The notes under the pieces were generated by a model. That model was given only the letters and a program-made list of their open reading frames with translations, was not told where the DNA came from and ran no database searches. 64,000 nucleotides of DNA. Origin: a virus. Lineage: Duplodnaviria; Heunggongvirae; Uroviricota; Caudoviricetes. This document shows, in pieces, positions 1,380 through 40,452 of the stretch. Within the stretch, counting starts at the first letter, position 1; each line of letters opens with the position of its first letter. Where the stretch lies: the IMG/VR virus record IMGVR_UViG_2703718772_000011; one strand, written 5' to 3'. The translations under genes and the position numbers were made by a program.

Positions 1380-1634
1380 TCATTTCGATTGATTATTTTC
1401 TCGACCATGTAGTTGAACATTCAAGGCAAACACCTCGTTAATCAACTCACCTAAAAGCTGTTCAACAAGTTCGCGATGCTCCCCAAGATGCAAGCACTTA
1501 ATTGCCCATTCGTACAAGTTGAAAGCCTGCTCGCGATCTTTCATCATTTCACGGGCCTGGGCCAGAAAATCGCTCTCTACGAGCGCAACGACATTAGTCG
1601 GGTATGACATGTTAGTTTCCTTAAAGTGATTCAT
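1380..1634 (-). CDS. hypothetical protein (84 aa)
   Basis: ORF in co-directional gene array; no recognisable motif. Confidence 0.45.
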   Translation of the reverse strand: MNHFKETNMSYPTNVVALVESDFLAQAREMMKDREQAFNLYEWAIKCLHLGEHRELVEQLLGELINEVFALNVQLHGRENNQSK

Positions 1635-1715
1635 AAAATCGATTTTAAAGCGTCTGGGAAGGGGTTCTAGTGGATTCTGTAGTGATGTTCAGGTCTGGAG
1701 TCTCTGATACAAAAC

Positions 1716-1776
1716 AGCCTGCTTCCGTATATTAATAATTAATATGTAGTTATTTATATATATACAGAAGCAGGCT
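1716..1776. repeat. 17-bp inverted repeat with AT-rich loop (agcctgcttccgtatat ... atatacagaagcaggct), copy 1 of 2
   Basis: Read directly; arms near-identical to the element at 48093..48147. Confidence 0.8.
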
Positions 1777-1797
1777 AATTACAGACGCCAGAACAAA

Positions 1798-2391
1798 CTA
1801 AGCAGCCTTCTTTGATGGTCTTTTTTTCCTGATCACATTCGCAGGATCATACCCTCCCAGACTTTTCATGACGTCCAAAGGGATCTTGCTTATAGAGTGC
1901 CCAGCGTCCTGACAGAATCCTCGAAAAACAACGAGCATACTGCCACCTGGGTTGATGTTTACTTCTACCTGACCCAGATTGACGTCAGGCTCGACAAACG
2001 CTACGCGGCCACCAGACAGAATAATCGTCTCATTCGCACACTCTGTTGCACGCTCATACCACTTTGTATCTAGGGATTGAGGAATTAGCATCACTGTTGT
2101 AACTCCGCGAGCCTGCTCACGTATAGCCGCATCAATCCAGGGGGAGATTTTGGAGTAGGGGGGATTGAGGAAGGCAATTGTACCTGGCTGTCCCCATTCA
2201 GATTTCAAAGCATCACGCTCAACGCCTATGAAATTAGGCAGCTTTGCATTGTCCTTGTTGCAGGCAACGTCAACATCAAATGTCACCCCAAGATAACGTT
2301 GAATGGCAGAAAACAGCCAGTCAGGTGTTCTCCAGAGGTCACGAAGAGAGTTGTCGCGCTTTCGCTGTTTGATTTTTTCGGCTGCAATCAT
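1798..2391 (-). CDS. dam: DNA N6-adenine methyltransferase (phage Dam-like)
   Basis: FLNPPYS catalytic NPPY motif; size and layout typical of phage Dam-family MTases. Confidence 0.8.
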   Translation of the reverse strand: MIAAEKIKQRKRDNSLRDLWRTPDWLFSAIQRYLGVTFDVDVACNKDNAKLPNFIGVERDALKSEWGQPGTIAFLNPPYSKISPWIDAAIREQARGVTTVMLIPQSLDTKWYERATECANETIILSGGRVAFVEPDVNLGQVEVNINPGGSMLVVFRGFCQDAGHSISKIPLDVMKSLGGYDPANVIRKKRPSKKAA

Positions 2392-2574
2392 CTTCTTTCT
2401 CGATAGGTAAGTAAATACCTATTTTTGCATTTGATTTTATGTCTGGCAATCAAATAAAACGCGCCAGAAATGCAAACGAGAAGCTCTCTGGCGCGTTTTT
2501 GTGGTGCTGGGTATGTGATTGGCTTGCCCAGCACTATAAAGCTCTCTATGGGCTTTATTTTCAGTAGGGGAACG

Positions 2575-3384
2575 TCATCCAATAGTGTACTCCGCGACAA
2601 ACTTCTTAACGATCGGTGATTCTTCGTTCAATGTTAGATTTCCACCGTCTCTAACGGCAATTCCTGTCGCTGGAAATACAGCCATCATTTGCCCAGCCTG
2701 AGTTGACGCAGTGTTAAGCGGATACGGTTTTTCTGGATTGCTCATTAAAGCAATCTTAATACTATTACTTGTAGCCTTCTTTTCTGTGAGAAGGTGTCTC
2801 ATGGAAATTACCGTGTAAACACTAATATCTGGACCTCCGCTAAACCAATTAAGAAGGTTTAATATCTTATCCTTTGCTTTGACAGGCGCGTTATCGTAAG
2901 CGTCTAAGAAAATATCTTTTTCTAAGCCCGCTTTATTGAAAAACGAATCATCTTTATCACTTAAAGTAAAACGAGGACCTCTTGCAGTACGAGCTTTTTT
3001 ATTTGTATTGCTATCATTTGACTGTTGAACTTTTAATTCATCATTAACCTCAACACACTCTTCAACCTCAATAAATCCCAATTGTTCTGGCTCGTTTTCG
3101 GCAGCTTCAACACTTTCAGCGTTAATTACGTTTATAGGCTCATGCGCTAACTCCAACTCATTTAAAGCAGAGCTGAAATCACCTGCTTTTTCTTCATTGA
3201 ACAGTTCTTCGGCAACATCATCAGAACTCATGGCTACGCCAGCATCTAGGCCGAGCTGCAGATCGTCAATATCATCAGTATTTTCAACCTGTGCAGCTTT
3301 TTTTACTGGTTCATCAAGTGATTGCAACATGGCTGTCAGCTCGTCCAGATCATCATTTGTCATTACATTTTCAACCGAACTCAT
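2575..3384 (-). CDS. acidic hypothetical protein (269 aa)
   Basis: Long ORF with strongly acidic N-terminal half (D/E-rich); function unknown. Confidence 0.6.
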   Translation of the reverse strand: MSSVENVMTNDDLDELTAMLQSLDEPVKKAAQVENTDDIDDLQLGLDAGVAMSSDDVAEELFNEEKAGDFSSALNELELAHEPINVINAESVEAAENEPEQLGFIEVEECVEVNDELKVQQSNDSNTNKKARTARGPRFTLSDKDDSFFNKAGLEKDIFLDAYDNAPVKAKDKILNLLNWFSGGPDISVYTVISMRHLLTEKKATSNSIKIALMSNPEKPYPLNTASTQAGQMMAVFPATGIAVRDGGNLTLNEESPIVKKFVAEYTIG

Positions 3385-3542
3385 GTAAGTCTCCTTCTGT
3401 TTGGTTACATTTGCGTTTCGATGGCTACATTTTGACTAAACCTATCAGGCGGAAAAGTATTAAATACAGGCAGGAAATGATTGAAAGGCGACTGTTCTTT
3501 AAAAGAAAGCCTACTTTAAACTTTTTAAAGTAGGCTTTTGTT

Positions 3543-4100
3543 TTACACAATTTCAGAGGGTAATTTAAAAAATCCGTACTTATTACGTGCCTTAAAGAAG
3601 CATTGCATCATTAAGTTTGTGTCATATAAGGCACTATGTGCTTTGGCATGATCGTATATAAAGCCAAGAGAGAAGGCCAACTCTTCAAGGCGGGGACGTT
3701 TACCGTCTTCTGTGGCCCACAATCCCGATAACATAGTATCTATAACAGGAACTTCTGGCAGTCTTACTCCATACCCTGAAAACTCGTGTCGAATAAATGG
3801 TATATCAAATGCTTCGCCGTTATGAGCAACCCACACACTACATGCCCCCATATAAGCGCCAATTTCGCTGGCATGATTTGACAACAAAGGTTCAGCTGCG
3901 AGCTGTTCCAATGAAATGCCATGAACGGCTTGAGCTTTCGGATCTATGTTTCTGCGAGGGTTAAAACGCATCTCCAGACTATCAATATGTCTCTGTGTCT
4001 CCAGTTCATAGCGGGTAATTGCGATTTCAATAATTTTATGACCAGCAAGGAAATCCAGTCCCGTAGACTCGATATCGATGCCTGCAACAATCGTTGTCAT
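3543..4100 (-). CDS. DEDDh 3'-5' exonuclease (DnaQ/epsilon-like)
   Basis: Exo I motif GIDIESTGL, later H-x4-D (HSALYD); DnaQ-like fold expected. Confidence 0.8.
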   Translation of the reverse strand: MTTIVAGIDIESTGLDFLAGHKIIEIAITRYELETQRHIDSLEMRFNPRRNIDPKAQAVHGISLEQLAAEPLLSNHASEIGAYMGACSVWVAHNGEAFDIPFIRHEFSGYGVRLPEVPVIDTMLSGLWATEDGKRPRLEELAFSLGFIYDHAKAHSALYDTNLMMQCFFKARNKYGFFKLPSEIV

Positions 4101-17578: not shown

Positions 17579-17617
17579 GCCTCTAGCCGTTGCGGTTACT
17601 GGTCTGAAAGGGTGTTG

Positions 17618-17725
17618 CCATCCACTATGGAGAGCAAAGAAACCTCTGTAGAGAGCTGAATAACCGCTATGAAGAGTAAAACAACCACTCTGGAGAGCTG
17701 TATATATCCACTGTAGAGAGTAGAG
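17618..17725 (+). repeat. iteron array A: five direct repeats (consensus aaCCACTATAGAGAGc) at 21-22 bp period
   Basis: Repeats at 17621, 17643, 17663, 17685, 17707. Confidence 0.8.
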
Positions 17726-17879
17726 CACATTGTCTTTTATGGATAACTTAATGACTTAATTCTTCATTAACATACTGATATACATAGATATATTTTAAAC
17801 TCTACTCTTAGTCATGATTCTTATGTCCTTAAATATCCACAGAAGAGTAGAGTTACCTGTTCTTGAAATCCTCTGATTT

Positions 17880-17888
17880 TTATCCACA
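17880..17888 (+). promoter_or_regulatory. consensus DnaA box TTATCCACA
   Basis: Exact 9-mer; one-mismatch copy ATATCCACA at 17833..17841; inside AT-rich segment 17730..17880 followed by GATC sites at 17894, 17908, 17949, 17994. Confidence 0.55.
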
Positions 17889-18000
17889 GGCCCGATCCAG
17901 TAATTCAGATCACAAAGAGAACCAAAGAGACCCATAAAGACCCAATAAGATCCCCGCCCACCTCAAACCGTTGTGCCATCTGCCTTCAGACATGATCGAT

Positions 18001-18122
18001 ATCCACTATAGAGAGCGAATAATCCACTATAGGGAGCAAAGCAACCACTATAGAGAGGAGAAAAACCACTATAGACGGTAGGATAACCGCTGTGATGAGT
18101 GCTACTATCCACTGTAATCAGC
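18001..18122 (+). repeat. iteron array B: six direct repeats immediately upstream of the rep gene
   Basis: atccactatagagagc-type units at 18001, 18022, 18043, 18064, 18085, 18107. Confidence 0.8.
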
Positions 18123-18162
18123 AAAGGCCACCAAAGCCGTCGAATAACAAGAGACATTTGGA

Positions 18163-19218
18163 ATGAGCGAAAACGGCAATAAAAACATAGCGATCGTTGA
18201 AGCATTTTCAGAAACAGATAAAAAGACAGGCGAAGTTGTTACGTTGGTTCCTAACACTAATAACACTGTTCAGCCTGTTGCTTTGATGCGTCTGGGCCTC
18301 TTCGTTCCGACGCTGAAATCGACATCCAGAGGAAGAAAGGGGCAAATGGTCTCTATGGATGCCTCTGCTGAACTCAAACAGCTGTCTCTGGCAAAAGCCG
18401 AAGGGTACGAAGACATAAGGATCTCTGGCCTTCGGCTTGATATGGATAACGACTTTAAAACGTGGGTGGGAATAATCCACGCGTTTGCCAAACACAAGGT
18501 TGTTGGCGATACTGTCACGTTGCCGTTCGTTGAGTTTGTAAGGCTGTGTGGCATTCCGACCGCCAGGTCATCAGCGAAGTTACGCAAACGCCTGGACAGT
18601 TCGCTAAGCCGTATTGCCACAAATACCATCTCGTTCCGTAGCAAAGGCTCTGATGAGTTTTACGTAACGCATCTTGTGCAAACGGCAAAATATAGTGTCA
18701 AGCACGATACGGTCGAACTGAAAGCAGATCCCAAGATTTTCGAACTCTACCAGTTCGACAAAAAGGTTCTTCTGCAACTCCGGGCTATAAACGAACTCTC
18801 AAGAAAAGAATCCGCTCAGGCGCTTTATACTTTTATTGAAAGTTTGCCGCCTGATCCGGCACCAATATCACTAGCCCGTTTACGCGCCAGACTTAATCTG
18901 ACAAGTCGCACTATTACTCAGAATGCGACGGTAAGAAAGGCTATGGAACAGCTGCGAGAGATAGGATATCTCGATTACACGGAAGTTAAGCGCGGAAACT
19001 CGGTCTACTTCGTCATCCACTATAGGCGGCCAAAGTTACGCCAGGCACAAATATCAACAAAAATCGATAATGATGAGACGGAATATAGCCTCCCAGATGA
19101 GAATCAAGATGACATTATCGACGTTGTGCCTGACGAAAAAGAAGGCAAAATGGTCATGTTGAGTAAAGAAGAACTGGCGCTTCTCGAAGAGTTGCGCAAG
19201 GCAAAGACTCGCAAATAG
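18163..19218 (+). CDS. repA: iteron-binding replication initiator (RepA-like)
   Basis: Only plus-strand gene in this region, flanked on both sides by iteron arrays with origin-like elements upstream; P1 oriR-repA-incA-like layout. Assignment by context. Confidence 0.6.
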
Positions 19219-19219
19219 C

Positions 19220-19703
19220 CCAACCACTGTAGTTAGTAGTAAGGCTCACTATCCACTGTAGTGAGCCTTACTTATATCTGTAATTCGCTATCCACTATAG
19301 TGAGTATCGTTATCTGTTGATAACCACTGTAGGCAGTAGAATGCAAATACTGAATTAAATGTTAGTGATCACTAACACTGATGAAACAAGGGCTGCGAGG
19401 TTAGTGGTCACTGGGTATCTTGGAAAATTTACTGTCTATAGTGGTTGTTGTCGCCCTCATCTTTGAGCGTATCCACTGTGGCGAGTGGATATCCACTGAA
19501 AACAGCAAAGGCTTACTCACCATAGTGGATACCCGCTGGACATCTCACTCCAATACTCACCATAGTGGTTGTTTGATGCGAATGAAAGGCTGTCTACTCG
19601 CTACAGTGGTTAGCAGATATGTAGGAAGGTTTTGTTACTGACTACAGTGGATAATGAGCTGGATACGAATGCGGTGAGCAGACTACTCACCGCAGTGGTT
19701 GGT
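19220..19703. repeat. iteron array C: about 12 CCACTRTAG-type iterons in both orientations downstream of the rep gene
   Basis: Direct copies near 19225-19335 and inverted copies (CTAYAGTGG) near 19432-19703. Confidence 0.75.
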
Positions 19704-22445: not shown

Positions 22446-24785
22446 TTACTCTTCTACTGACTCGGTGGGGTTGTCTTTTGCTCTTCGGTCGTCGATTGCC
22501 TGCAAAGCCGCAATGATTTCAGCCAGTGGCTTCTCCCGATACATCTCGACGATCTGCGATTTGGTGTATTTCTTGTCACCAATTTCAACTCGCCCGCTGG
22601 CGTTCTTTGGCAGGTATCCTTCTTCCAGCATGTACTCGACGAGCGATTCGATAACGTCGAGGCCACGAGTAGGATCGAAGTAGAATTTCCAGGTGCATTT
22701 GCCATACGGTGGTGCAACTTTGTTTTTGATGCATTCTGCGCCTACGTCCTGGCCGATCTTCTCTTTACCATCCTTCATCACCGATGCACCAAGACGGATA
22801 CGTACAGAAGCGTAGAACTTCGGTGAATCTCCACCTGGCGACGTAGTAGGGTCGCCAAACATTACACCGATTTTTGTGCGAACCTGATTCAAGAAGATGA
22901 TGCAGGCGTTGTATTTGCGTGCCCACAAAGCCAGAGTAGGGAAGTTCGCACTCGTCGCACGAGCCAGTGCCGTATTGTCGTTCATGTTTAGCTGATCTTT
23001 GTCTTTGGCAGTGCCTTCAGCCATCTTTTCGAACTTCTCGGCTTTGGAGTTCGGAACCATAGACGCAAGAGAGTCAGCCACGATACAGATTGGTGCTGAT
23101 TCGGGGATAAGCTCTTCATCACGAACCAATTTAAGTATTGTGCCGATCAACTCTACAGAGTCTTCGAAGGTATCTGGCTGCTTGTATACCCACTGACCGT
23201 CATCCTCATCTGCGTTCAGGCCATTGGCTACAGCCAGGCCAACGTCAAAACTGTTTTCATGATCGAGGAATACCGCCAGACCATCTTGTTTTTGAGCGGA
23301 GATCATCGCTGCTGTTGCAAGGAATGTGTTGTGGCTGATAATCCCGTTAGACCAGAAAGAGTGTGTTTCCGGCATCGCTACGTCGAACGTTGGCGCTTCA
23401 CCTTCCTCAATAGCCACGACTTCGTCGTAGAACAAGTTAGAGCCAATTACCGCTGCCAGTTGTGCAAACAGATGCTCGTTAAAACGATTCTTTCTGCCAA
23501 TGAAGGAGACATAGATTTCTCGCAGTTTGTCTATTCCGACACGATCGCCGCGGCCAATAACGTGGTCTACCAGAGCGTAGTCTTCACGGGTGGTCTTGGT
23601 GAGCGACTCGTAGAGTGATTTCACTAAGCCGCTGATGTGCGGAACATAGCCTGAGTAAGTGCGGTCAAAACCAATGTCCCGTTTGGTTGCCACTGATAAA
23701 CGTGCCGGAGATTCGAAACCAATCGTTGACAGAAAAAGGTCGTAATTAGAGCCACTGAATGACAGCCGGTAATATGTATTTTCATAACCCGCGACGTGTT
23801 TTTCAGAGATAGTTGACGTAATCCCCAGATTCAGGAGCATGAGGCGAATTTGCTGTAGCAGCAGCCCACTCGCGCTCACAACCTCAATGCAGCGACCATC
23901 ATTGACGTGGCATTCCAGCTCAAAGTAGCCGCGAAGGAATGCAATTTGAGCCTCGCTATTGGCGCGACGCACACTCAACGGAACCTGCTTGCCAGCAGCT
24001 TTCTCATACTCCAGACCATATTCTTTAAAAAGCAGCGAACGCACCTCTTTGCTAAACAGCACATGGTCTTCCGAGCCGTTATGTTTTCTCGTAACTGGCA
24101 TCTTGTCTGATACCAGCGAAATGAGGCGGTAGTACTCATCCTTGATGAAAGGATCTGTGTTAGAAAAATTCACTGAATTTTCAGAGGCCACGTATCCGTC
24201 AGCAATTAAATAGCCCATCAGTTTTGCGATATTGGCATCCAGGTGCTGATCGCCGAATTGATGTGTGCCAACCATTGAAGGAATCGTGTCGCCTACACTG
24301 ATTTTTTCAGCATGTCGCCAGACGACATTACCTAAGTCGTCAACCACACGGATTGGGTGACGGAACGTAGCCTCGATATAACCGCCTGATGCCAGCTTAA
24401 TACGCTTGAATTTGCGACGGTTGTTCCATGTCAGGTGTGAGGTCTTCTCTATCACGCCATTTTCATTGATGAGTCCAACGTTATGCTCTACATCGCGAGT
24501 AGTGCATGTCGCTTTGTACCCTTCAATCTCAAACAACTCTTTCACTGTTACCATTCCACGCTCCGTCAGCAGCATGGTGTCTGCGGTAACACATTTCCCC
24601 GCACTTGGAGGACCGAATACTTCGACGATACGACCACATGGGAAGCCGCCATCGTAACGACCAGAAATAGCTTTGTTTAACGGTGGAAAGCCTGTATCAA
24701 TCCAATGAGTTACTTTCTGAATTTCGTCGTTGCTACCGATTTTCTTTTTCAGAGCAAGTGCCAGTGCGGATTTTCCTTTTGCCAT
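22446..24785 (-). CDS. recA: RecA-family recombinase interrupted by an intein
   Basis: Exteins (about 357 aa) align with E. coli RecA (GRIVEVFGPPSAGK / TFLATAAMISAQ..., IIFLNQVRTKIGVMFGDPTTSPGGDSPKFYASVRIRLG). A 422-aa insert splits the Walker A loop. Confidence 0.85.
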   Translation of the reverse strand: MAKGKSALALALKKKIGSNDEIQKVTHWIDTGFPPLNKAISGRYDGGFPCGRIVEVFGPPSAGKCVTADTMLLTERGMVTVKELFEIEGYKATCTTRDVEHNVGLINENGVIEKTSHLTWNNRRKFKRIKLASGGYIEATFRHPIRVVDDLGNVVWRHAEKISVGDTIPSMVGTHQFGDQHLDANIAKLMGYLIADGYVASENSVNFSNTDPFIKDEYYRLISLVSDKMPVTRKHNGSEDHVLFSKEVRSLLFKEYGLEYEKAAGKQVPLSVRRANSEAQIAFLRGYFELECHVNDGRCIEVVSASGLLLQQIRLMLLNLGITSTISEKHVAGYENTYYRLSFSGSNYDLFLSTIGFESPARLSVATKRDIGFDRTYSGYVPHISGLVKSLYESLTKTTREDYALVDHVIGRGDRVGIDKLREIYVSFIGRKNRFNEHLFAQLAAVIGSNLFYDEVVAIEEGEAPTFDVAMPETHSFWSNGIISHNTFLATAAMISAQKQDGLAVFLDHENSFDVGLAVANGLNADEDDGQWVYKQPDTFEDSVELIGTILKLVRDEELIPESAPICIVADSLASMVPNSKAEKFEKMAEGTAKDKDQLNMNDNTALARATSANFPTLALWARKYNACIIFLNQVRTKIGVMFGDPTTSPGGDSPKFYASVRIRLGASVMKDGKEKIGQDVGAECIKNKVAPPYGKCTWKFYFDPTRGLDVIESLVEYMLEEGYLPKNASGRVEIGDKKYTKSQIVEMYREKPLAEIIAALQAIDDRRAKDNPTESVEE
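23328..24593 (-). mobile_element. intein with LAGLIDADG homing-endonuclease domain inside recA P-loop
   Basis: Starts with Cys right after GPPSAGK, ends His-Asn followed by Thr (+1); internal KLMGYLIADGYV and FLRGYFELECHVNDG blocks. Confidence 0.8.
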
Positions 24786-24787
24786 GA

Positions 24788-25060
24788 TCAGGCTCCTTTT
24801 GTTTCGTTGATTCGTTTTAAAGCGGCGGATTCGTCGAATACAATCGCATCGTGATTAAGGAGTCTGGATACACGAGCGAGGATTTTTACGACCTGCTCGC
24901 TGACTAATCCAAACTCGCGATCTGTCGCTTTCATTCCGGCAGCGCCTAGAATTGACGGCAGTGCGATGACAGCGTACTCACCGTGATAAAAGACAATCTC
25001 TTTTGCCAGTTGGGTGGGGGTGGTTGTAGCGCCATTAATAATCGATTTAAGCATTAGCAA
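24788..25060 (-). CDS. hypothetical protein (90 aa)
   Basis: ORF between FEN and recA genes. Confidence 0.45.
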   Translation of the reverse strand: MLMLKSIINGATTTPTQLAKEIVFYHGEYAVIALPSILGAAGMKATDREFGLVSEQVVKILARVSRLLNHDAIVFDESAALKRINETKGA

Positions 25061-26049
25061 TACCTTTCGAATGGAAGAACAAACACTTCAAGGTCTTCAA
25101 GGAACGAACGGAAATTCAGCTCGTAGCACAGTTGCTCGAATGCTTTCACGTCACGATTGCCTTTGATTGTTTCGATTTCGGTAGGCGGAAACTTCGTCTC
25201 AATCAGGTTCATTAGCGTGATGTTTCTCTTGAACGCTTCGAGCATTCGACAGCCTGTTTTCTCGTTGAAGGCATTCTTCGCTAGTTTGTTGAAGGCGGTC
25301 TTATGACGCCCTTTATTAACCACGATTGAGCCGTCGTTGATGCCGCGTACCATCGTTGCGACACTTCCCCATTCATGCAGCAGCTCTTTCGCACCGCCAG
25401 CACCAATGCCACCAACACCGCTAATGTTGTCCGAGTTATCGCCTTGTAATGCTTTTGCTTCCAAAAATGCGCGAGGCGTGGCGAATCCTGTCAGCTCCGC
25501 AAATTGCTCAAAATTAACCTGCTTGTTTTTGGCGTCTTCACGCAGGCTTACCCAGCTTACGTTTTCACGAACTAACTGAAGCCAGTCGCTATCGCCTGTT
25601 AACAGATAGATGTGTTCAACGGTTGGCTGCGGTGCCATGCGGGATACCAGCAGCCCGGCCAGATCATCCGCTTCTGCATCTTTTGCAATGAGTTGGGTAA
25701 CTCCAAGCGCGGTCATCATTTTGAGGATGTATGGCTTCTGGATAGCAAAGCCTTCCTTCATCTTTTTCATATCAGGATCGTCGTCGCGATTTGCTTTGTA
25801 GTCCGGGTAAAAGTCGCGACGCTTGTCACTAAATCCATCCCAAAGAATCATAGGTCGGGCATGGAGGATGGAGGCATAACGACGGACGTTCTTAACAAAG
25901 CCGAAAGCAGCCTGTACTTCCATTTCGCCGTTGTGCAATTTGTCAGATTGTTGGTGGTAATAACCCAGGCTATTGCCATCTACGAAGAGATAATTCACCG
26001 GTACATTCCTTCCAAAAAGTAAGGCGTCCGTAGACGCCTTACTGGTCAC
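25054..26049 (-). CDS. 5'-3' exonuclease / flap endonuclease
   Basis: YLFVDGNSLGYYH, LTGDSDWLQLV, GDNSDNISGVGGIG motifs of the Pol I 5'-nuclease/FEN family. Confidence 0.85.
   Translation of the reverse strand: MTSKASTDALLFGRNVPVNYLFVDGNSLGYYHQQSDKLHNGEMEVQAAFGFVKNVRRYASILHARPMILWDGFSDKRRDFYPDYKANRDDDPDMKKMKEGFAIQKPYILKMMTALGVTQLIAKDAEADDLAGLLVSRMAPQPTVEHIYLLTGDSDWLQLVRENVSWVSLREDAKNKQVNFEQFAELTGFATPRAFLEAKALQGDNSDNISGVGGIGAGGAKELLHEWGSVATMVRGINDGSIVVNKGRHKTAFNKLAKNAFNEKTGCRMLEAFKRNITLMNLIETKFPPTEIETIKGNRDVKAFEQLCYELNFRSFLEDLEVFVLPFERYC
26022..26047 (-). terminator. rho-independent terminator (ggcgtc-cgta-gacgcc plus T-run)
   Basis: Directly after the SSB-like gene stop. Confidence 0.65.
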
Positions 26050-26058
26050 GTAATGGGA

Positions 26059-27087
26059 TTACAGAGAGTCCAGCTCTCTCAGTAGGTCATCCAGACCTTC
26101 ATCTTCCGTCGCAGATGCGGCTGCTACAGATGTCGCTGCGACTGCTTCAGACTCTTTGACTGATACGGCAACGGCAGCGGAACTTGCTTCTGGTTTAAAT
26201 TCAGTTTCAACGGCACGGAGGATTTCTTCATCAACCAGACTGGTTGGTTCAGAAGCTGGGGTGTGAGCGGTTGCTACAGCAGTCGCACCCTCCGTATGAC
26301 CAGTGACAGAGCCAAATCCAGGTAGTGCCGCAGCCGATGTTTTCGCGGTTGAGGAAATTGCTGGTGCAGATGCTGCGGCAGTTGGTGCAGCGATGCCAAT
26401 CAGACGACCCATAGTGCGAACTGTCGACAGAAGACGAGTTTCATCAGCCTGATTTGCGTATGCGATCAGATCATGCTGGGTGTTCCAGAATTTATCTTCG
26501 ATATCGCCTTTGTAGACTTTACGCTTAGGCGAGACGTCATATTTGGTATCGCGACCAGAGCCAGTACGTTTAATCAGGAATGCGTAGCCTTCCTCTTTGC
26601 TCAGTGGATTGCCGATATCATCAGCGATGTCTTCGGTGATTGCTTTGCAGATATCATCGAATACAGTAGACGGCAGCTCGATTAACTGGCATTTCTCAGC
26701 ATCTGCGAAATCCTCACGAGCAGAAAGAATGCCGTTGACCAGGTAGCGAGGAGTGGCACGCATTTGACCGATGCGTTCTTCCATTGCTTTGTTACCCTTG
26801 TGACGAGCGCGACCTTCCATCACCATTTCGCATAGCTGACAAGCGCGACCGTGAGTATGTTGCTCACAAATATAAGCGTTGGTTGCTTCTTTACCTTCCT
26901 CGTTCTGATACTTAACGTAGTGCATACCGAAAGTCTGGAAGAACTTACCGTTTGGGTCGTCTTTATTCGGGAAGATGCGGATATAGTTGACGCCGTCTTT
27001 TAAGCGAGTCAGATCAACGTTGTTGCCACGTTTGGCGGCAATGTCTTCACGAGTTTTGTTAAGCAAATCAAGTAATGTCTTAGACAT
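26059..27087 (-). CDS. single-stranded DNA-binding protein (T4 gp32-like, putative)
   Basis: His/Cys spacing H56..C74..C83..C86 like the gp32 zinc site, Ala/Ser linker, acidic C-terminal tail EDEGLDDLLRELDSL. Confidence 0.55.
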   Translation of the reverse strand: MSKTLLDLLNKTREDIAAKRGNNVDLTRLKDGVNYIRIFPNKDDPNGKFFQTFGMHYVKYQNEEGKEATNAYICEQHTHGRACQLCEMVMEGRARHKGNKAMEERIGQMRATPRYLVNGILSAREDFADAEKCQLIELPSTVFDDICKAITEDIADDIGNPLSKEEGYAFLIKRTGSGRDTKYDVSPKRKVYKGDIEDKFWNTQHDLIAYANQADETRLLSTVRTMGRLIGIAAPTAAASAPAISSTAKTSAAALPGFGSVTGHTEGATAVATAHTPASEPTSLVDEEILRAVETEFKPEASSAAVAVSVKESEAVAATSVAAASATEDEGLDDLLRELDSL

Positions 27088-27204: not shown

Positions 27205-27636
27205 TCAACGGGGAGTAATAAAGCGTTCAGAGCCTAATCGCTCTAATTCAACGATGGCCATCTTTGACGCCTGAACGATCATGTCTCGGCGATGCGAAAA
27301 GGCGGCGACAGCATGTTTGTATATGTCTGCGATGTGCCGTGCTTCATCCAACTTCTGCCGTTTAGACAGATACTGTGGGTTTGTTTTAACCTTAGCGTCC
27401 AGTACAGACTCGTTGAACTTAATGCCGTTCATACTCAAGTTCTTACGCTCTGTGTCGTATAGCTTTGCTTCAACAGCTTCAAGGTTAAGTTTTGCCTCTG
27501 CGACATCTCGATCTGCCTGCGCTAGTTTTGACCCATACTCCATTAAAAGCCGTGGCTGTTTACGCCATACTTCCTCAAGGTTGTCGCGGTCGAACTCCAG
27601 ATCGGCCATGATTTTAGAAAAAATATCAGTGTTCAC
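27205..27636 (-). CDS. hypothetical protein (possible UvsY-like recombination mediator)
   Basis: 143 aa coiled-coil protein next to SSB and RecA-like genes; similarity to UvsY is only by size and context. Confidence 0.4.
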   Translation of the reverse strand: MNTDIFSKIMADLEFDRDNLEEVWRKQPRLLMEYGSKLAQADRDVAEAKLNLEAVEAKLYDTERKNLSMNGIKFNESVLDAKVKTNPQYLSKRQKLDEARHIADIYKHAVAAFSHRRDMIVQASKMAIVELERLGSERFITPR

Positions 27637-27844
27637 TCTAATAGGTTCCTACTTATAAAATCTGTATCAATTATATCAAACAGAGAACGGGTTTATGGCG
27701 TCATGTCAACTTTGTTCAGGGGAAAATATTGAGATCACCGAAGATAATTAGTTGTCTTATTTTGGTAAGCTGTGCTGACCATCTTTAGGTCACATACATG
27801 AGATGGATGGGGGTGTGGCATGAACGGATGAAATTCAGTCGCCG

Positions 27845-27873
27845 TTGACAGATGTCAACACTGTGAATAGAAT
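27845..27873 (+). promoter_or_regulatory. consensus sigma70 promoter (TTGACA-17-TAGAAT) with overlapping palindrome TTGACAgaTGTCAA
   Basis: Hexamers at 27845..27850 and 27868..27873; GGAGG RBS at 27883; ATG at 27891. Confidence 0.7.
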
Positions 27874-27890
27874 ACTATTATCGGAGGCGA

Positions 27891-28115
27891 ATGAAGCAAC
27901 ATCCGAATAAGCATATTCAAGCAGCCATTGACTATGCATTAAGTAAAGGCTGGATCTGGGTAGCAGCTGGTGGTGCTGCACATTGTTTTTGCAGACTGCG
28001 ATGCGGTAATCCAGAAGGTGAACACAAAACTCACCAAATGAGCGTATGGTCGACTCCGGGTAATCCCGAAAACCATGCCAAACAGATCAAACGAATGGTT
28101 GATCGTTGTAAATGA
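27891..28115 (+). CDS. small His/Cys-rich protein (74 aa; HicA-like toxin candidate, unverified)
   Basis: First gene after the promoter; KGW...GGAAH pattern loosely HicA-like. Confidence 0.5.
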   Translation: MKQHPNKHIQAAIDYALSKGWIWVAAGGAAHCFCRLRCGNPEGEHKTHQMSVWSTPGNPENHAKQIKRMVDRCK

Positions 28116-28175
28116 TTTCAAGGCGGCATTAGCCGCCTTTTGCAGAAACTGTCCAACTATCTTCAAAGGAAAACT

Positions 28176-28739
28176 ATGGCGCTTTATAACTTCACTCTGA
28201 CGCTCTCAGGCGTATCGTATGAGACGGAAGGACTGGAAGACGCGCTGTACCAAAACGGCTGTGACGATGCGCTAATTTGCGCATATGGAAACTCCGTCTA
28301 TGTAGAATTTGACCGCGAAGCACAATCACTTGATGCAGCTATCGCATCTGCGGTCGACAATATTGAATCAGCCGGTATCGGTGCAATTGTTGAATCCGTC
28401 GACTCGGCTCTTGTGGGCTTAAGCGATATCGCGGAACTGACAGACCTGTCTCGCCAGGCAGTGGCGTTGCTCAAAGACGGTAAGCGCGGAAGCGGCGACT
28501 TCCCTTGCCCTGTACAACGCATAAAAGGCCAGTCTCCTCTCTGGGATTGGGCTGATGTGGCTGAATGGCTCATGAATAACGGACGACTTAAAGAGGGCGA
28601 TCAAATTGTCCAAAATGCCCGAACTTTGAGTAAATGGAATCTGGCGCTTCGAAACAGCGTCTCGAAAGATTTCAACGAAATAGAGCAAATTGCGGAGAAA
28701 CTGATTAAACGCCGCAAAGATATTGCGAAATGCGCATAA
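28176..28739 (+). CDS. HTH-containing protein (187 aa; HicB-like antitoxin candidate, unverified)
   Basis: AAGGA RBS then Met at 28176; helix-turn-helix-like LSDIAELTDLSRQAVALLKDG. Confidence 0.5.
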   Translation: MALYNFTLTLSGVSYETEGLEDALYQNGCDDALICAYGNSVYVEFDREAQSLDAAIASAVDNIESAGIGAIVESVDSALVGLSDIAELTDLSRQAVALLKDGKRGSGDFPCPVQRIKGQSPLWDWADVAEWLMNNGRLKEGDQIVQNARTLSKWNLALRNSVSKDFNEIEQIAEKLIKRRKDIAKCA

Positions 28740-28740
28740 T

Positions 28741-28772
28741 GATGCCCGCCAATTGGCGGGCATCTGTTCTCT
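28741..28772 (+). terminator. hairpin terminator (gatgcccgcc-aatt-ggcgggcatc)
   Basis: Perfect 10-bp stem 2 nt after the stop; weak T-tract. Confidence 0.5.
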
Positions 28773-28855
28773 GTAAAGGTGTCTGGCATCGTCTGGTTCG
28801 TTAACGTTTACTAAACCAATGGTGACAAAAATTAGTTATCTTTGAAAAATAAAGG

Positions 28856-28884
28856 TTGCATGAAAAGAAGGGGTATGCGTTAAT
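28856..28884 (+). promoter_or_regulatory. candidate cspA-type promoter (TTGCAT-17-GTTAAT) with AT-rich upstream element
   Basis: Hexamers resemble the E. coli cspA promoter as I recall it; would give a 5' UTR of about 180 nt. Confidence 0.4.
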
Positions 28885-29068
28885 AGCATCGTTGGTTTGC
28901 AAGACAGACCTTATGTAAGCAGTTTTAGTAAAGCAGTCTCAGTTCAGTGTTATCTTCTGATTTCCCTTCTTCGTGAGTCTCCTCCTTAAGTGCCTAAGTA
29001 AGTCCCAATCTATACAGATCAAATTCTCGCCGCACTATGTGGCTCACAAAATTAAGAAGGTAATATCT

Positions 29069-29284
29069 ATGTCTAATAAAATGACTGGTTTAGTAAAATG
29101 GTTTAACTCTGATAAAGGCTTTGGCTTTATTTCTCCTGCTGATGGCAGTAAAGATGTTTTTGTACATTTTTCGGCAATTCAGAGTAATAATTTCCGCACT
29201 TTGGAAGAAGGCCAGCAGGTCGAATTCTCTATCGAGAATGGTGCTAAAGGCCCAGCAGCAGCAAATGTCGTTGCTCTAAGCTGA
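29069..29284 (+). CDS. cspA: cold-shock protein CspA family
   Basis: [38 protein letters not shown]..., near-identical in pattern to E. coli CspA; start at the internal Met preceded by AAGAAGG. Confidence 0.9.
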
Positions 29285-29559
29285 TTCAACGCTGATGATC
29301 CTCATTTCTACAATAACGAAGACGGTGTAAGCCTGAGTGGATAGATTTGTAGGATTGTACAAGTTGAATAAATTAGCATGGTAAGGCCATGCTAATTAAA
29401 TCGACACAACGGCCAGTTTATTCCATAAAAGTGAATTGCCCATTGTGGCGAAATGCGGGGTTGCCGCATGAATAGTCAAAGGCAGAAGCTAACTGCCGGC
29501 ATGGCAAAACAAAGTGCGTAAGAGGAGTGACTTCCTCAACAAGCGCCATAATTCTTTAT

Positions 29560-29587
29560 AAACCCGCCAACAGGCGGGTTTTCTTTA
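29560..29587. terminator. terminator hairpin (cccgcc-aaca-ggcggg-ttttcttt), probably bidirectional
   Basis: Between convergent cspA island and dnaE stop. Confidence 0.6.
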
Positions 29588-32500
29588 TTACTTATTTATT
29601 GTCTCCGCGATATCAGCCAGAATGGCCTCCAGTCGCTCTCCTTCTTCCGGTCGGAAGTACAGGATATTCGGGTTAAATCCGTAGAAGACGGTTGCATCAA
29701 GCTCTGGGAAGTACTCCTTACGACCAATCAGATCTGATGGTTTACTCTTATTGTTAAATAGTGCGGTTGAACGACTACCACACGTCAAAATGTAGGTCGG
29801 ACGCACCAGATTGATCTCTTCACGTATAAAGTCGGTGAACTGGCCGATCTCGTCTTTGGTATAGTCTTTCTCTTTGTCCTTAACCTTCTTACAAACACCC
29901 GTGACATAAAGATCGCCCATGCGCAGATCTCCAACTGTCAGTAGTTTTGCCTTAAAGTCGTCGTATCCGTTCTCCATGAAGTAGCCGGTACGAGCGTCAT
30001 TGCCGTTCGCATTGTCCAGAATGATCATGATTTTGGGTTTAATACCAATAGTCGGGCGTATCAACTCCTCACCCAAGCCCATTTCAGCCGCCATACGTGT
30101 CATGAGTACGTTGATTTCGGCAGAACGCTTAGGATTCATTTCGAACGGACGTGATGCTTTAACAGCGTCAATGATGAGATTGCCCATCAGCTCAGCTTGG
30201 TCGCGCAGTCGTTCAGGATCAGTTGCTGGCAGACTGCCTGGCTCAATTGACGCAAAAGCCCCTACTTTATGAAGCGACTCGCGTACACGACTGTTACATG
30301 CACGCTTCTCGACCGCTTCATCGAATTGTGCCACTGACTCGAATTTGCCACCAACTTTCTCACGCGCACGCATAATTGCCTGACAACCATTTTCAGAACA
30401 GCCTTTCACAGCAGAGAATGGCGCATACAGTGCCTGACTGCCGTCTTCGAGTGTGCGGATCTCAATTCGGTTAGATGACACATTAACGTCTGGTGGCAAT
30501 ACGCGAATGCCATAGGTCAGCGCATCCTTCACCAGCCCCTGATGCTTATCCTCGCCCAGAATGGTGAGCGCAGCTGCGAAGAACTCAGCAGGGTAGTGCG
30601 TCTTTAGCCACATAGACTGATAACTGATTAAAGAATAAGCAACGGAGTGTGATTTATTGAACTGATAGGCTCCGTTTTTCTCAAATGCGGTCCAGATCTC
30701 CTTCGCTTTCATCTCTGATAGCCCTGGATGTGACGCTGTAACGCGTACTGCGTTTATAGGTAGTTTTGCGCCGTGCTCAAGTGCCTCTTCGACAGTTTTC
30801 AGAGTTCCGTCTTCGCATTTAAAATGTTCCGCACGGTGAATGCGCTGTGTAGTGCCATCTTCCAGCTCAACGTCTATCCAGCCAGCTTGAGCCTGAACGA
30901 TGAACTTCTCGCCCATGCTCTTCATTTTTTCCATGTTCTTCTTACCGATTGCGGAACGCACAGCGTCAGCTTCAGCCATTGTGAAGCCGGCAAGCAATCG
31001 AGTCGCGTTCATCGTCTGTTCCTGATAGAGAATCACGCCATTTGTTTCCGCGGTAAGTTCATCAAGAACGGGGTGTAATGATTCCGGCGTCATAAAGCCT
31101 TTGGCGACAGAAACATAGTCATCCAACATGCCTGATTGAATTGGCCCCGGCCGGAAGAGCGCAGTTGTAGCGACGACCGTTTTAAAGCTCATTGGCTCAA
31201 TTCCACCACCTAAATCTTTAAGCAGCTTGCGCATTGGGCCTGATTCAAGCTGGAAAACACCTTGAGTGTACCCAGCAGCAAAACCATCCAGCACCTTGCG
31301 ATCTTCAAGAGAAATGGCATCAAGATTGATATCTTCACCTGTGTTCTCTTTTATGTAGCGTTTTGCACTATCGAGCAAATCGAGAGTTGCCAGGCCAAGC
31401 ACGTCCAGCTTAATTAGGCCCATAGCCTCGCAGTAACGCTTGTCAAATGCGATACAACGCGCGTCACCACGGCGCTCAACCGGTGTACGTTCTGTCAGAG
31501 GAACACCTGCTACGATCATCCCTGCCGCATGTCTACCAAAGCCACGCATAAGGCTTTGTAACTTGCAGGCTGCATTGAATGCATCAGGATATTTTGTTGC
31601 GTATTTGTCGAGACTTGCCAGTTGTTCGCGCAGTTCTTCCAATGGAAGGCTATCATCCTCAGCGTTCTTCAGTTCTTTTGATACCGCCATATCTGCGGAC
31701 TCCACACCATAAATACGAGCGGTATCACGTAGTGCAGAGGCTGCGCCCAGGTAGGTGAAGTTCGGAATACCCGCAACGTAATCTTCGCCGTAGCGTTCAT
31801 TCAGATACTCGATCACCTCATGGCGACGTGCCTGGCTGAAGTCCAAGTCCGCATCCGGCAAGTCGAGACGCTCAGGGTTGATGAAACGCTCAAACAGAAG
31901 ACCGTGACGGATTGGGTCGACGTTGGTTATGCCTATGCACCACGCCACCAGAGAACCGGCAGAGGAACCACGACCAGGCCCAACGGGAATGCCAGTTTCA
32001 CGACTATGATTCATCAGATCGCGTACCATCAGGAAGTAACCACAAAATCCCAGGCGAGTCAGCGTGTCCATTTCGTACTTTAGCCGCTCAACATAAACCC
32101 TGTTCTCTGAAGCAGGTGGTGTGTATCCAAACTCTTTTGTGGTAAGACGTTTACGCAGCCCTGCAACAGCCAGTTTCATAAGCGTTGCAGGCTCGTCGTC
32201 TGCCATCTTTGGCAGTGCTGGCGGCAATTCATGCCAGCGCCATGTGCAGGCATCGATAATGGTATCCTGCGTTGTTGAGGCCATTGCAGCTGTTACCGGC
32301 ACATCCATGCGAACGGAGAAGGCTTTAAGCGCCTCAAGGAGATGGCGGCGACCATTGACGGCGTTATCTCGCTGGTGGGGGATACGCAGACGATGCGGCT
32401 GGTCGATTTTGATGTTGTTCGTAACCATGTGCGCAATGTCTTTAATGTCTGCATCGTCGATCGATTCGTAATAAGCGGGATAGAACGCCACTGGCTCTAT

Positions 32501-39798: not shown

Positions 39799-39885
39799 TG
39801 GCGGAGAGTAATGGAATCGAACCATCATCGCTTGCGCAATGGGACGGTTTTCAAGACCGCTTGAGCACCATGCTCCCTACTCTCC
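39799..39885 (-). tRNA. tRNA-Ser (anticodon TGA), class II with long variable arm
   Basis: Hand-folded: acceptor ggagagt/actctcc, anticodon loop cttgaaa, T-loop ttcgatt, ends GCCA; D-arm somewhat atypical. Confidence 0.65.
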
Positions 39886-39985
39886 GGCTATTGTGATGGT
39901 CGGTGCTGAACTCCGACACAGGGTTGTAGCAAGCCCCGCAAAGCGCGCACTACTGTAGTTGCGGCACATCAGCCTGTGCATTCAT

Positions 39986-40064
39986 CACAACGGTAAGATC
40001 ACTACCTTTCGACCAGTCATTGTGCACATGAACGACGATTAACCGTAATGATCTTATCGTTGTG
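39986..40064. ncRNA. tRNA-sized stem-loop element 2 (cacaacggtaagatc / gatcttatcgttgtg)
   Basis: Paralogous to elements at 39719, 40116, 40727. Confidence 0.3.
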
Positions 40065-40115
40065 TTGTGAAGCCAGATGCTTATCTTCTGGTTGCTTCAA
40101 AGAGCTGCACTTCCT

Positions 40116-40204
40116 CACAACGGTAAGAGCACTGGTCTGACTCTATCGATTTACGGGCTTGTGGGTCAGTATCGCCGATTCGCCCAATGCTCTTACCTGT
40201 TGTG
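40116..40204. ncRNA. tRNA-sized stem-loop element 3 (cacaacggtaagagc / gctcttacctgttgtg)
   Basis: Abuts tRNA-Thr; no canonical T-loop found. Confidence 0.3.
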
Positions 40205-40205
40205 T

Positions 40206-40282
40206 TGGTGCCGGTTAACGGGATCGAACCGCTGACATCCTGCTTACAAGGCAGACGCTCTACCAACTGAGCTAAACCGGCA
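40206..40282 (-). tRNA. tRNA-Thr (anticodon TGT)
   Basis: Acceptor tgccggt/accggca, D-arm agctcagttggtagagc, anticodon loop cttgtaa, T-loop ttcgatc, CCA encoded. Confidence 0.85.
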
Positions 40283-40285
40283 ATT

Positions 40286-40372
40286 TGGTGGGGAGTGATG
40301 GAGTCGAACCACCCGAGTCGCAATGACAGTAGATTTACAGTCTACCCCGCTGCCCCTACGGACTAACTCCCC
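40286..40372 (-). tRNA. tRNA-Tyr (anticodon GTA), long variable arm
   Basis: Acceptor ggggagt/actcccc, anticodon arm gtaga-ctgtaaa-tctac, T-loop ttcgact, CCA encoded. Confidence 0.8.
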
Positions 40373-40377
40373 TAAAT

Positions 40378-40452
40378 TGGCGATGGTGGGTGGATTCGAA
40401 CCACCGACCAGTTGGTTAACAGCCAACTGCTCTACCGCTGAGCTACACCATC
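40378..40452 (-). tRNA. tRNA-Asn (anticodon GTT)
   Basis: Acceptor gatggtg/caccatc, D-arm gctc-agcggta-gagc, anticodon arm gttgg-ctgttaa-ccaac, T-arm ggtgg-ttcgaat-ccacc, CCA encoded. Confidence 0.9.

What the first reader, a model, noticed from the sequence alone, without database searches (positions are those of the whole stretch)
23328..24593. Intein with homing-endonuclease domain splitting the Walker A loop of a phage-plasmid RecA-like recombinase
The 779-aa ORF is RecA-like on both sides of a 422-aa insert. The insert begins with Cys immediately after GPPSAGK, ends with His-Asn, and is followed by Thr, the canonical intein junction chemistry. It contains two LAGLIDADG-like blocks (KLMGYLIADGYV, FLRGYFELECHVNDG). 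Exteins sum to about 357 aa, the size of a normal RecA. An intein sitting in the ATP-binding loop would make recombinase activity depend on splicing.
Basis: partly seen in the sequence, partly recalled or inferred. Interest (0 to 1): 0.8.

Follow-up and report, generated by a model that had tools for sequence, protein, structure and literature searches.

The report
Known RecA intein on a phage-plasmid
The recombinase gene of this E. coli phage-plasmid is interrupted in its ATP-binding loop by a real self-splicing, mobile protein element (an intein with a homing endonuclease), but this same intein was catalogued in 2015 and is already labelled in public annotation, so it is a correct but not a new finding.

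Summary
ORF 22446..24785 (-) encodes a 779-aa RecA-family protein. Its Walker A loop (GPPSAGK|T) is split by a 422-aa insert (window 23328..24593) that starts with Cys, ends with His-Asn and is followed by Thr. Curated intein and LAGLIDADG profiles are passed, all class-1 splicing residues and both endonuclease acidic residues are present, and an AlphaFold model (pLDDT 82) matches solved intein endonucleases. An intein-less allele in phage CMS-2020a encodes a protein identical to the predicted spliced product.

The element is an SSU5/pHCM2-type phage-plasmid. The intein occupies 248 of 736 related plasmid records. In complete E. coli genomes it is found in 120 of 5,426, always on plasmids. Intein DNA is 97-99.8% identical between lineages whose exteins are only 78-85% identical. 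All intein-bearing alleles compared share two synonymous flank markers (-7, +3), and the endonuclease core has dN/dS of about 0.1. Together these indicate recent homing.

It is not new. Topilina et al. 2015 list this RecA intein as "c2 (65-486)" in E. coli, Enterobacter and Salmonella, and PGAP names some copies "intein-containing recombinase RecA". What is added here is the exclusive phage-plasmid location and the population evidence for homing. Splicing and cleavage remain untested.

The parts
22446..24785 (-). Precursor ORF: 779 aa (86.5 kDa), an intein-containing RecA-family recombinase
   Evidence: PHROG 9666 matches end to end
24594..24785 (-). N-extein, aa 1-64, ending in the Walker A residues GPPSAGK
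   Evidence: aligned to E. coli RecA GPESSGK
23328..24593 (-). Intein, aa 65-486 of the precursor (422 aa, 47.5 kDa)
24258..24593 (-). N-terminal Hint (splicing) part, intein residues 1-112, including Cys1 (block A)
   Evidence: TIGR01445 matches intein 1-83; beta-rich in the model; dN/dS 0.03-0.08
24357..24368 (-). Block B T76-F-R-H79 (TxxH)
   Evidence: alignment A1; invariant in six copies
23694..24257 (-). LAGLIDADG homing-endonuclease core, intein residues 113-300
   Evidence: PF14528 at 2.4e-17; matches to VMA and PI-PkoII endonuclease domains; dN/dS 0.09-0.12
24189..24224 (-). LAGLIDADG motif 1 (KLMGYLIADGYV), acidic residue D132 of the intein
   Evidence: aligned to the catalytic Asp/Glu of the VMA and PI-PkoII inteins
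23895..23939 (-). LAGLIDADG motif 2 (FLRGYFELECHVNDG), acidic residue E227 of the intein
   Evidence: aligned to the Asp of the second motif in the VMA and PI-PkoII inteins
23418..23693 (-). Helical region after the endonuclease core, intein residues 301-392 (less constrained, dN/dS 0.3-0.4; possibly extra DNA-contact or linker region)
23328..23417 (-). C-terminal Hint part, intein residues 393-422, with blocks F and G (D404, H411, H421, N422)
   Evidence: TIGR01443; alignment A1
22446..23327 (-). C-extein, aa 487-779 plus the stop codon, beginning with Thr+1 of Walker A and carrying Walker B and the L2 loop
24600..24600 (-). Intein-linked synonymous marker at -7 (third base of GCG). It is G in all six intein-bearing alleles and A, C or T in the three empty alleles.
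23325..23325 (-). Intein-linked synonymous marker at +3 (third base of the Thr+1 codon ACA). It is A in all six intein-bearing alleles and G or C in the empty alleles.

Best explanation
This is a canonical class-1 intein with a nested double-motif LAGLIDADG homing endonuclease. It sits between Lys64 and Thr of the Walker A loop of the RecA-family recombinase of an SSU5/pHCM2-type phage-plasmid. The gene is translated as an 86.5-kDa precursor whose ATP-binding loop is split, so it should be inactive as a recombinase (inferred). Cys1 would start an N-S acyl shift, and Thr+1 would take over the N-extein by transesterification. Asn422 would then cyclise, assisted by His421, His411 and Asp404, releasing the 47.5-kDa intein. 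The exteins would be rejoined into a 39.0-kDa recombinase identical to the one encoded by intein-less alleles. These chemical steps are inferred from residue conservation, while the identity of the product is shown. The released intein would act as a site-specific endonuclease on intein-less recA alleles of related phage-plasmids in the same cell. Repair of that break from the intein-bearing copy would copy the intein in (homing). The population pattern expected from homing is shown here, but cleavage itself is not. It is the same intein published as RecA 'c2 (65-486)'.
For: Profiles pass their curated cut-offs: PF14890, PF14528, TIGR01445 and TIGR01443. C1, T76xxH79, D404, H411, H421, N422, T+1, D132 and E227 are all present and invariant in six copies. 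The AF2 model has pLDDT 82 and pTM 0.86. Its best structural matches are the TliVMA intein (TM 0.68, E 2e-19), PI-PkoII, PI-PfuI and PI-SceI. The empty allele in phage CMS-2020a encodes a 357-aa protein identical to the joined exteins, with 10 synonymous differences. The intein is polymorphic: it is in 248 of 736 related plasmid records. Intein dS is 0.003-0.10 between lineages whose extein dS is 1.2-2.1, and each lineage has an empty allele 97-99% identical in the exteins. Two synonymous flank markers (-7 G, +3 A) are shared by all six intein-bearing alleles and absent from all three empty alleles. dN/dS is 0.09-0.12 in the endonuclease core. Isolated phages PhiR41_1 and Cyrano carry the intein-bearing gene. 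The published entry is 'c2 (65-486)' in E. coli, Enterobacter and Salmonella RecA. Strain MS 145-7 from that table carries this intein at 99.9% identity on a plasmid.
Against: No splicing or cleavage experiment on this intein was found in the searchable literature. The co-conversion inference rests on six intein-bearing and three empty alleles. The marker tract is very short (-7 to +3). The E227 and Cys228 arrangement replaces the usual Asp-Gly of motif 2. Some copies are decaying: one has an insertion and others are truncated.
Confidence: 0.88

Rival explanations
1. The intein still splices, but its endonuclease is no longer active. In that case the intein moves between lineages only by ordinary homologous recombination between co-resident phage-plasmids.
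For: SSU5-like elements carry their own recombination module next to the gene: RecA, a 5'-3' exonuclease and a gp32-like SSB. A mosaic intein (MG904996) shows that recombination occurs inside the intein. Motif 2 reads ELEC rather than the usual xDG.
Against: The endonuclease core is under purifying selection, with dN/dS of about 0.1. Both acidic residues are retained in every copy examined. In the E. coli and Klebsiella pairs, the only differences from the nearest empty allele within about 150 nt of the junction are -7, -4 and +3. That fits repair started at the insertion point better than random crossovers.
Confidence: 0.1
2. Splicing is conditional, so the intein has been co-opted as a post-translational switch. 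The phage-plasmid recombinase would become active only under certain conditions, such as DNA damage, ssDNA, redox state or temperature, as shown for the Pyrococcus horikoshii RadA intein at the same P-loop point. This is compatible with the best explanation rather than opposed to it.
For: The insertion point is the same as the Pho RadA intein, whose splicing is controlled by its native exteins (PMC4513877). Diverged inteins (46-48% identical) occupy the same site in the closest RecA relatives, P0030 and P0031, which suggests long residence. The intein has four Cys residues.
Against: Nothing in the sequence demonstrates regulation. About two-thirds of related plasmids do without the intein, so it is dispensable. 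Topilina et al. report that Pho-like extein-intein contacts could not be modelled for the E. coli precursor.
Confidence: 0.15
3. The insert does not splice at all. The gene would then be an inactivated recombinase that is merely tolerated, or the insert would be a free-standing endonuclease fused by chance.
For: PGAP often labels the whole ORF only 'LAGLIDADG family homing endonuclease'.
Against: The reading frame is intact in about 240 records. All splicing residues are conserved. Exteins of intein-bearing alleles are under very strong purifying selection, with dN/dS of about 0.01. The insert boundaries coincide to the residue with the empty allele.
Confidence: 0.02

Closest known systems
RecA intein at insertion point c2 (65-486) of E. 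coli, Enterobacter cloacae and Salmonella enterica (Topilina et al. 2015, NAR, PMC4513877)
   Same: The host protein, insertion point and residue numbers (65-486) are the same. Strain MS 145-7 from that table carries this intein at 99.9% DNA identity. It is the same entity.
   Different: The paper treats it as a bacterial 'E. coli RecA' intein and never uses the word 'phage'. Here it is found only on SSU5-type phage-plasmids: 121 of 121 places in complete E. coli genomes are on plasmids. The host protein falls short of the bacterial RecA equivalog cut-off. The paper reports no splicing or homing data for it.
Pyrococcus horikoshii RadA mini-intein (insertion point c1)
   Same: It occupies the same point at the end of the P-loop of a RecA/RadA-family ATPase. 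It is also a class-1 intein, and the structural match covers the Hint fold only (4e2t).
   Different: The Pho intein lacks an endonuclease domain. Topilina et al. judged the sequences unrelated beyond the Hint fold and inferred independent invasion. Its conditional splicing is demonstrated, whereas nothing has been tested here.
Archaeal LAGLIDADG inteins with solved structures: TliVMA/PhoVMA (7qss, 7qsu, 7qst), PI-PkoII (2cw7), PI-PfuI (1dq3); also yeast PI-SceI
   Same: They share the two-domain architecture of a Hint splicing domain with a nested double-motif LAGLIDADG endonuclease. TM-scores are 0.61-0.68 and the catalytic acidic residues align.
   Different: Sequence identity is only 15-21%, and the host proteins and insertion sites differ. 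The element here is bacterial, mesophilic and phage-plasmid borne.
Mycobacterium tuberculosis and M. leprae RecA inteins (sites a and b)
   Same: These are inteins in RecA, and the Mtu intein also carries a LAGLIDADG endonuclease.
   Different: Their insertion points are at the monomer-monomer interface, not the P-loop. Only weak Hint-level structural similarity is seen (2in9, 2imz).
'Classic' P-loop (GK|T/S) inteins of other ATPases: DnaB-b, MCM-a, RFC-a and mycobacteriophage TerL1-a
   Same: The insertion lies between the invariant Lys and the nucleophilic Thr/Ser (PMC4760082; PMC5050341). Among the top relatives found here, 130 of 143 N-junctions read GK|C and 142 of 145 C-junctions read HN|T or HN|S.
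   Different: The host proteins differ. 101 of the 156 closest relatives are in RecA-like proteins.

Membership tests
Class-1 intein (Hint splicing domain) | Nucleophile (Cys/Ser) at intein position 1 | tested here: met
   Cys65 of the precursor directly follows GPPSAGK and is invariant in six copies.
Class-1 intein (Hint splicing domain) | Block B TxxH | tested here: met
   T76-F-R-H79 is conserved in relatives and lies inside the TIGR01445 match.
Class-1 intein (Hint splicing domain) | Blocks F and G: Asp and His of block F, a penultimate His and a terminal Asn | tested here: met
   D404, H411, H421 and N422 are present. TIGR01443 scores 17.8 bits against a cut-off of 15.6.
Class-1 intein (Hint splicing domain) | Cys/Ser/Thr at +1 of the C-extein | tested here: met
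   Thr487, which is the Walker A Thr.
Class-1 intein (Hint splicing domain) | Curated profile match and Hint fold | tested here: met
   PF14890 scores 44.3 bits against a cut-off of 35.8. The AF2 model matches solved inteins at E 2e-19.
Class-1 intein (Hint splicing domain) | In-frame insertion absent from otherwise near-identical alleles | tested here: met
   The CMS-2020a allele is 357 aa and identical to the joined exteins. Empty alleles also exist in the Klebsiella and SSU5 lineages.
Class-1 intein (Hint splicing domain) | Autocatalytic protein splicing that yields ligated exteins | not testable with these tools
   This needs expression and a western blot or mass spectrometry. No published test was found.
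LAGLIDADG homing endonuclease (double-motif, intein-nested) | Two LAGLIDADG motifs, each with a catalytic acidic residue | tested here: met
   D132 and E227 align to the catalytic Asp/Glu of the VMA and PI-PkoII inteins. PF14528 scores 63.4 bits against a cut-off of 22.5.
LAGLIDADG homing endonuclease (double-motif, intein-nested) | Site-specific cleavage of the intein-less allele and homing | tested here: inconclusive
   Cleavage could not be tested. The population signature of homing is present: intein dS is 0.003-0.10 against extein dS of 1.2-2.1, flank markers at -7 and +3 are shared, and the intein is polymorphic.
RecA insertion point c2 intein (Topilina et al. 2015) | Located between Lys and Thr of the RecA P-loop, at residues 65-486, in Enterobacteriaceae | tested here: met
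   The coordinates are identical. The plasmid copy in strain MS 145-7 is 99.9% identical.
RecA-family recombinase (host protein) | RecA profile match, with Walker A, Walker B and the L2 loop | tested here: met
   PF00154 scores 145.8 bits against a cut-off of 27 on the joined exteins. The alignment to E. coli RecA 3cmu covers GPPSAGKT, IVADSLASM and NQVRTKIGVMFGDPTTSPGG.
Bacterial RecA equivalog (TIGR02012) | Score above the equivalog cut-off | tested here: not met
   The score is 153.7 bits against a cut-off of 325.3. PHROG 97 'UvsX-like recombinase' matches at 1e-91. The host protein is therefore a phage-type RecA homologue, not the cellular RecA.
SSU5/pHCM2-type phage-plasmid | Near-identity to known members, with a plasmid replication initiator and phage structural genes on one replicon | tested here: met
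   Searches give the similarity. A Rep3 initiator lies at 18163..19218. Tail genes are present in the collinear record.

The most novel reading that the evidence does not exclude
The only intein catalogued for E. coli is in fact a currently active homing element. It circulates among SSU5-type phage-plasmids of Escherichia, Klebsiella, Enterobacter and Citrobacter, and its splicing may gate the element's own recombinase. If so, it would give the field a native intein system in a fully tractable host in which to test whether P-loop inteins are regulators or purely selfish.
Probability: 0.3. Interest if true: 0.5.

Novelty: already known. Interest (0 to 1): 0.25.

Why it matters
As a discovery it adds little. 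It is a textbook intein at the textbook P-loop site, and this exact one is already listed in the literature and in RefSeq product names.

Two modest points are still useful. First, the so-called E. coli RecA intein does not belong to the cell. It belongs to a widespread family of phage-plasmids, some of which carry resistance genes, and RefSeq often names the whole recombinase 'LAGLIDADG family homing endonuclease', which hides the recombinase. Second, the intein is polymorphic (about one third of related plasmids carry it) and shows clear signs of recent spread between genera. That makes it a convenient natural system for measuring intein homing and possible conditional splicing in E. coli itself. 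[quoted passage not shown]

Tried and rejected
- **Papers linking an intein to this element type.** I searched for intein plus SSU5 (no papers), phage-plasmid (7 papers) and pHCM2 (1 paper), and none of the hits appears to concern this intein. I opened only the Klebsiella CG147 paper, which mentions inteins only in a reference.
- **Experimental work on the enterobacterial RecA intein.** Three searches found only the 2015 catalogue entry. A CASP14 paper that matched the terms concerns an unrelated BIL2 domain.
- **Ordinary RecA domain or free-standing endonuclease fusion.** I rejected both because the boundaries coincide exactly with an empty allele and the Hint blocks are complete.
- **A second intein elsewhere in the window (dnaE, nrdA, helicase, primase).** A phmmer search of all 180 ORFs of 80 aa or more found only this one.
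- **Sequence search of solved structures.** It gave only weak matches (E about 1e-7), so I relied on a fold comparison instead.
- **The word-indexed homologue search.** It returned only 14 hits, so the exhaustive representative search was needed to see the family.
- **The E. albertii C-extein.** This copy is truncated and its tail is out of frame. Its extein dN/dS values are therefore meaningless and were ignored.
Full report
**Observation**

The minus-strand ORF at 22446..24785 encodes 779 aa. GPPSAGK occupies residues 58-64. The next residue is Cys65, residues 485-486 are His-Asn, and residue 487 is Thr. The joined exteins are 357 aa. The two quoted LAGLIDADG-like blocks are at aa 188-199 and 283-297.

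**Is it an intein?**

- **Profiles.** Pfam finds RecA in two pieces around the insert (3.3e-36), LAGLIDADG_3 (2.4e-17) and Intein_splicing (44.3 bits, cut-off 35.8). With the insert removed, RecA becomes one continuous and stronger match (2.2e-42). NCBIfam's intein N-terminal and C-terminal splicing models both pass their cut-offs.
- **Splicing residues.** An alignment with relatives shows the full set of class-1 residues: C1, T76-x-x-H79 (block B), D404 and H411 (block F), H421-N422 (block G) and Thr+1. They are invariant in the six copies I compared.
- **Endonuclease residues.** The acidic residues of the two LAGLIDADG motifs, D132 and E227, align with the catalytic Asp/Glu of the VMA and PI-PkoII inteins.
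- **Fold.** An AlphaFold2 model (pLDDT 82.1, pTM 0.86) matches solved bifunctional inteins: TliVMA (E 2e-19, TM 0.68), PI-PkoII, PI-PfuI and PI-SceI. Mini-inteins and I-DmoI match the separate domains.

**Host protein and replicon**

The joined exteins align with E. coli RecA across Walker A, Walker B and the L2 loop. They fall short of the bacterial RecA equivalog cut-off (153.7 against 325.3 bits) and match PHROG 97 'UvsX-like recombinase'. The host protein is therefore a phage-type RecA homologue.

The window is 97-99% identical and largely collinear with E. coli plasmids of the SSU5/pHCM2 phage-plasmid type. It carries a Rep3-type initiator (18163..19218), a 5'-3' exonuclease (25054..26049) and a gp32-like SSB (26059..27087). 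The collinear record also annotates nrdAB, thyA, dnaE, ligase, primase, helicase and phage tail genes. No other intein is present in the window.

**Empty site**

Escherichia phage CMS-2020a has a 1074-nt allele of the gene. Its product is identical to the predicted spliced protein, and it differs from the joined extein DNA at 10 synonymous positions. SSU5 and Klebsiella phage vB_Kpn_1825-KPC53 also have empty alleles.

**Distribution**

| Collection | Records with the gene | Records with the intein |
|---|---|---|
| All plasmid records | 736 | 248 (34%) |
| Escherichia | 229 | 123 |
| Klebsiella | 269 | 71 |
| Enterobacter | 91 | 41 |
| Citrobacter | 21 | 6 |
| Salmonella | 42 | 1 |
| Yersinia | 63 | 0 |

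In 5,426 complete E. coli genomes the intein is present in 120. All 121 copies are on plasmids and none is chromosomal. Two isolated phages, PhiR41_1 and Cyrano, carry the intein-bearing gene.

**Evidence for recent homing**

- **Discordant divergence.** Intein DNA is 96.8-99.8% identical among the E. coli, Klebsiella and Enterobacter lineages, while their exteins are only 78-85% identical. Each lineage has an empty allele 97-99% identical in the exteins.
- **Synonymous divergence.** It is 0.003-0.10 in the intein against 1.2-2.1 in the exteins.
- **Flank markers.** All six intein-bearing alleles read GCG GGG AAA | intein | ACA TTC CT. The three empty alleles each use other synonymous codons. 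Positions -7 and +3 are the only flank positions within 60 nt that are fixed in all intein-bearing alleles and absent from all empty ones. In the E. coli and Klebsiella pairs, the only differences within about 150 nt of the junction are -7, -4 and +3. This is what a very short co-conversion tract from double-strand-break repair would leave.
- **Selection.** dN/dS is 0.03-0.08 in the N-terminal splicing part, 0.09-0.12 in the endonuclease core and 0.3-0.4 in the helical region after it.
- **Decay.** Decaying copies exist too: one interrupted by an insertion and several truncated. This fits the usual gain-and-loss cycle of homing elements.

**Wider family**

An exhaustive search found 4,662 representative proteins at E <= 1e-3 and 189 at E <= 1e-30. 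I analysed the listed hits plus nine from the word-indexed search, 156 proteins in all:

- 101 have RecA-like exteins.
- 130 of 143 N-junctions read GK|C.
- 142 of 145 C-junctions read HN|T or HN|S.

The nearest RecA relatives, P0030 and P0031, carry inteins only 46-48% identical at the same point. P0007 is a RecA with the canonical GPESSGK|TTL Walker A from a 550-kb contig and has a related intein there too. A RuvB (P0014) has a mini-intein in its P-loop.

**What is already known**

Topilina et al. 2015 (PMC4513877) mined RadA and RecA inteins. Their Table 1 lists 'c2 (65-486)' for E. coli (eight strains, including MS 145-7), Enterobacter cloacae, Enterobacter sp. and Salmonella enterica. [quoted passage not shown] The complete genome of strain MS 145-7 carries this intein at 99.9% identity on a plasmid, so it is the same element.

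That paper never mentions phage. [quoted passage not shown] PGAP names copies variously 'LAGLIDADG family homing endonuclease', 'hint domain-containing protein', 'recombinase RecA' or 'intein-containing recombinase RecA'. P-loop GK|T insertions are described as the classic and commonest intein site (PMC4760082; PMC5050341). I found no experimental test of splicing or cleavage for this intein.

**Mechanism**

Shown here:
- the anatomy of the intein and the conserved catalytic residues;
- the identity of the predicted product with a natural allele;
- the polymorphism and the discordant divergence;
- the flank markers and the purifying selection.

Inferred:
- The precursor is inactive because Walker A is split. 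For Pho RadA, ATPase activity is compromised before splicing, as summarised in PMC8529194.
- Splicing follows the four-step class-1 pathway.
- The free intein cuts empty alleles in co-resident phage-plasmids and is copied in by repair.

Conditional splicing is possible but has no support here. About two-thirds of related plasmids lack the intein, so it is dispensable.

**Verdict**

The novelty class is 'already known'. What this analysis adds is the exclusive phage-plasmid location and the population-genetic evidence for recent homing across genera. Interest is low to moderate.

Noticed in passing
window 28891-29309 (+), ORF frame 28973..29284: A full-length cspA thermoregulator RNA (RF01766, 187.6 bits) lies with a CspA-like cold-shock ORF ([23 protein letters not shown]...) on the phage-plasmid. 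It sits between two small plus-strand ORFs without Pfam matches (27891..28115 and 28140..28739) and dnaE. This segment does not align with the otherwise collinear plasmid NZ_CP027358.1: window 27615-29622 has no alignment to that plasmid.
   Followed up: partly
window 39799-40452 (-): A cluster of four tRNA genes: Ser(tga), Thr(tgt), Tyr(gta) and Asn(gtt). Rfam confirms three of them.
   Followed up: no
L010 (NZ_MG904996.1), intein region: This intein is a mosaic. It has the Klebsiella/Enterobacter-type substitutions Y26H, V90I, H94Y and N142H in the N-terminal part and the window-type sequence in the rest, which indicates recombination between intein variants.
   Followed up: partly
L011 (CP059946.1), locus 1501-3545: In this E. 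coli plasmid the intein is interrupted after ...NSVNFS by an insertion of about 780 bp, and the ORF terminates early. This is a decaying copy. The nature of the insertion was not examined.
   Followed up: partly
L008 (CP043255.1, E. albertii, 62-kb plasmid): This is the most diverged intein copy (94.0% identical). It is intact, but the C-extein is truncated after FEKMAE on a much-reduced plasmid. The intein therefore outlives its host gene in a deleted derivative.
   Followed up: partly
window 17608-19689: The replication-initiator region does not align with the otherwise collinear plasmid NZ_CP027358.1, which has a RepB-family initiator there. The window instead has a Rep3-type initiator (18163..19218; PF01051 1.3e-10), so the replicon module appears to have been swapped between related phage-plasmids.
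   Followed up: partly
window 24788-27087 (-): Directly upstream of the recombinase gene are a 90-aa ORF with no Pfam match (24788..25060), a 5'-3' exonuclease (25054..26049) and a gp32-like SSB (26059..27087). With the recombinase they form a compact phage-type recombination module.
   Followed up: partly
P0014 (RuvB-like protein from a metagenome): A related mini-intein sits at GPPGLGK|C...HN|TTLG in the Walker A loop of RuvB. Other relatives sit at GK|C in non-RecA P-loop proteins. This intein lineage has therefore jumped between different P-loop hosts.
   Followed up: no
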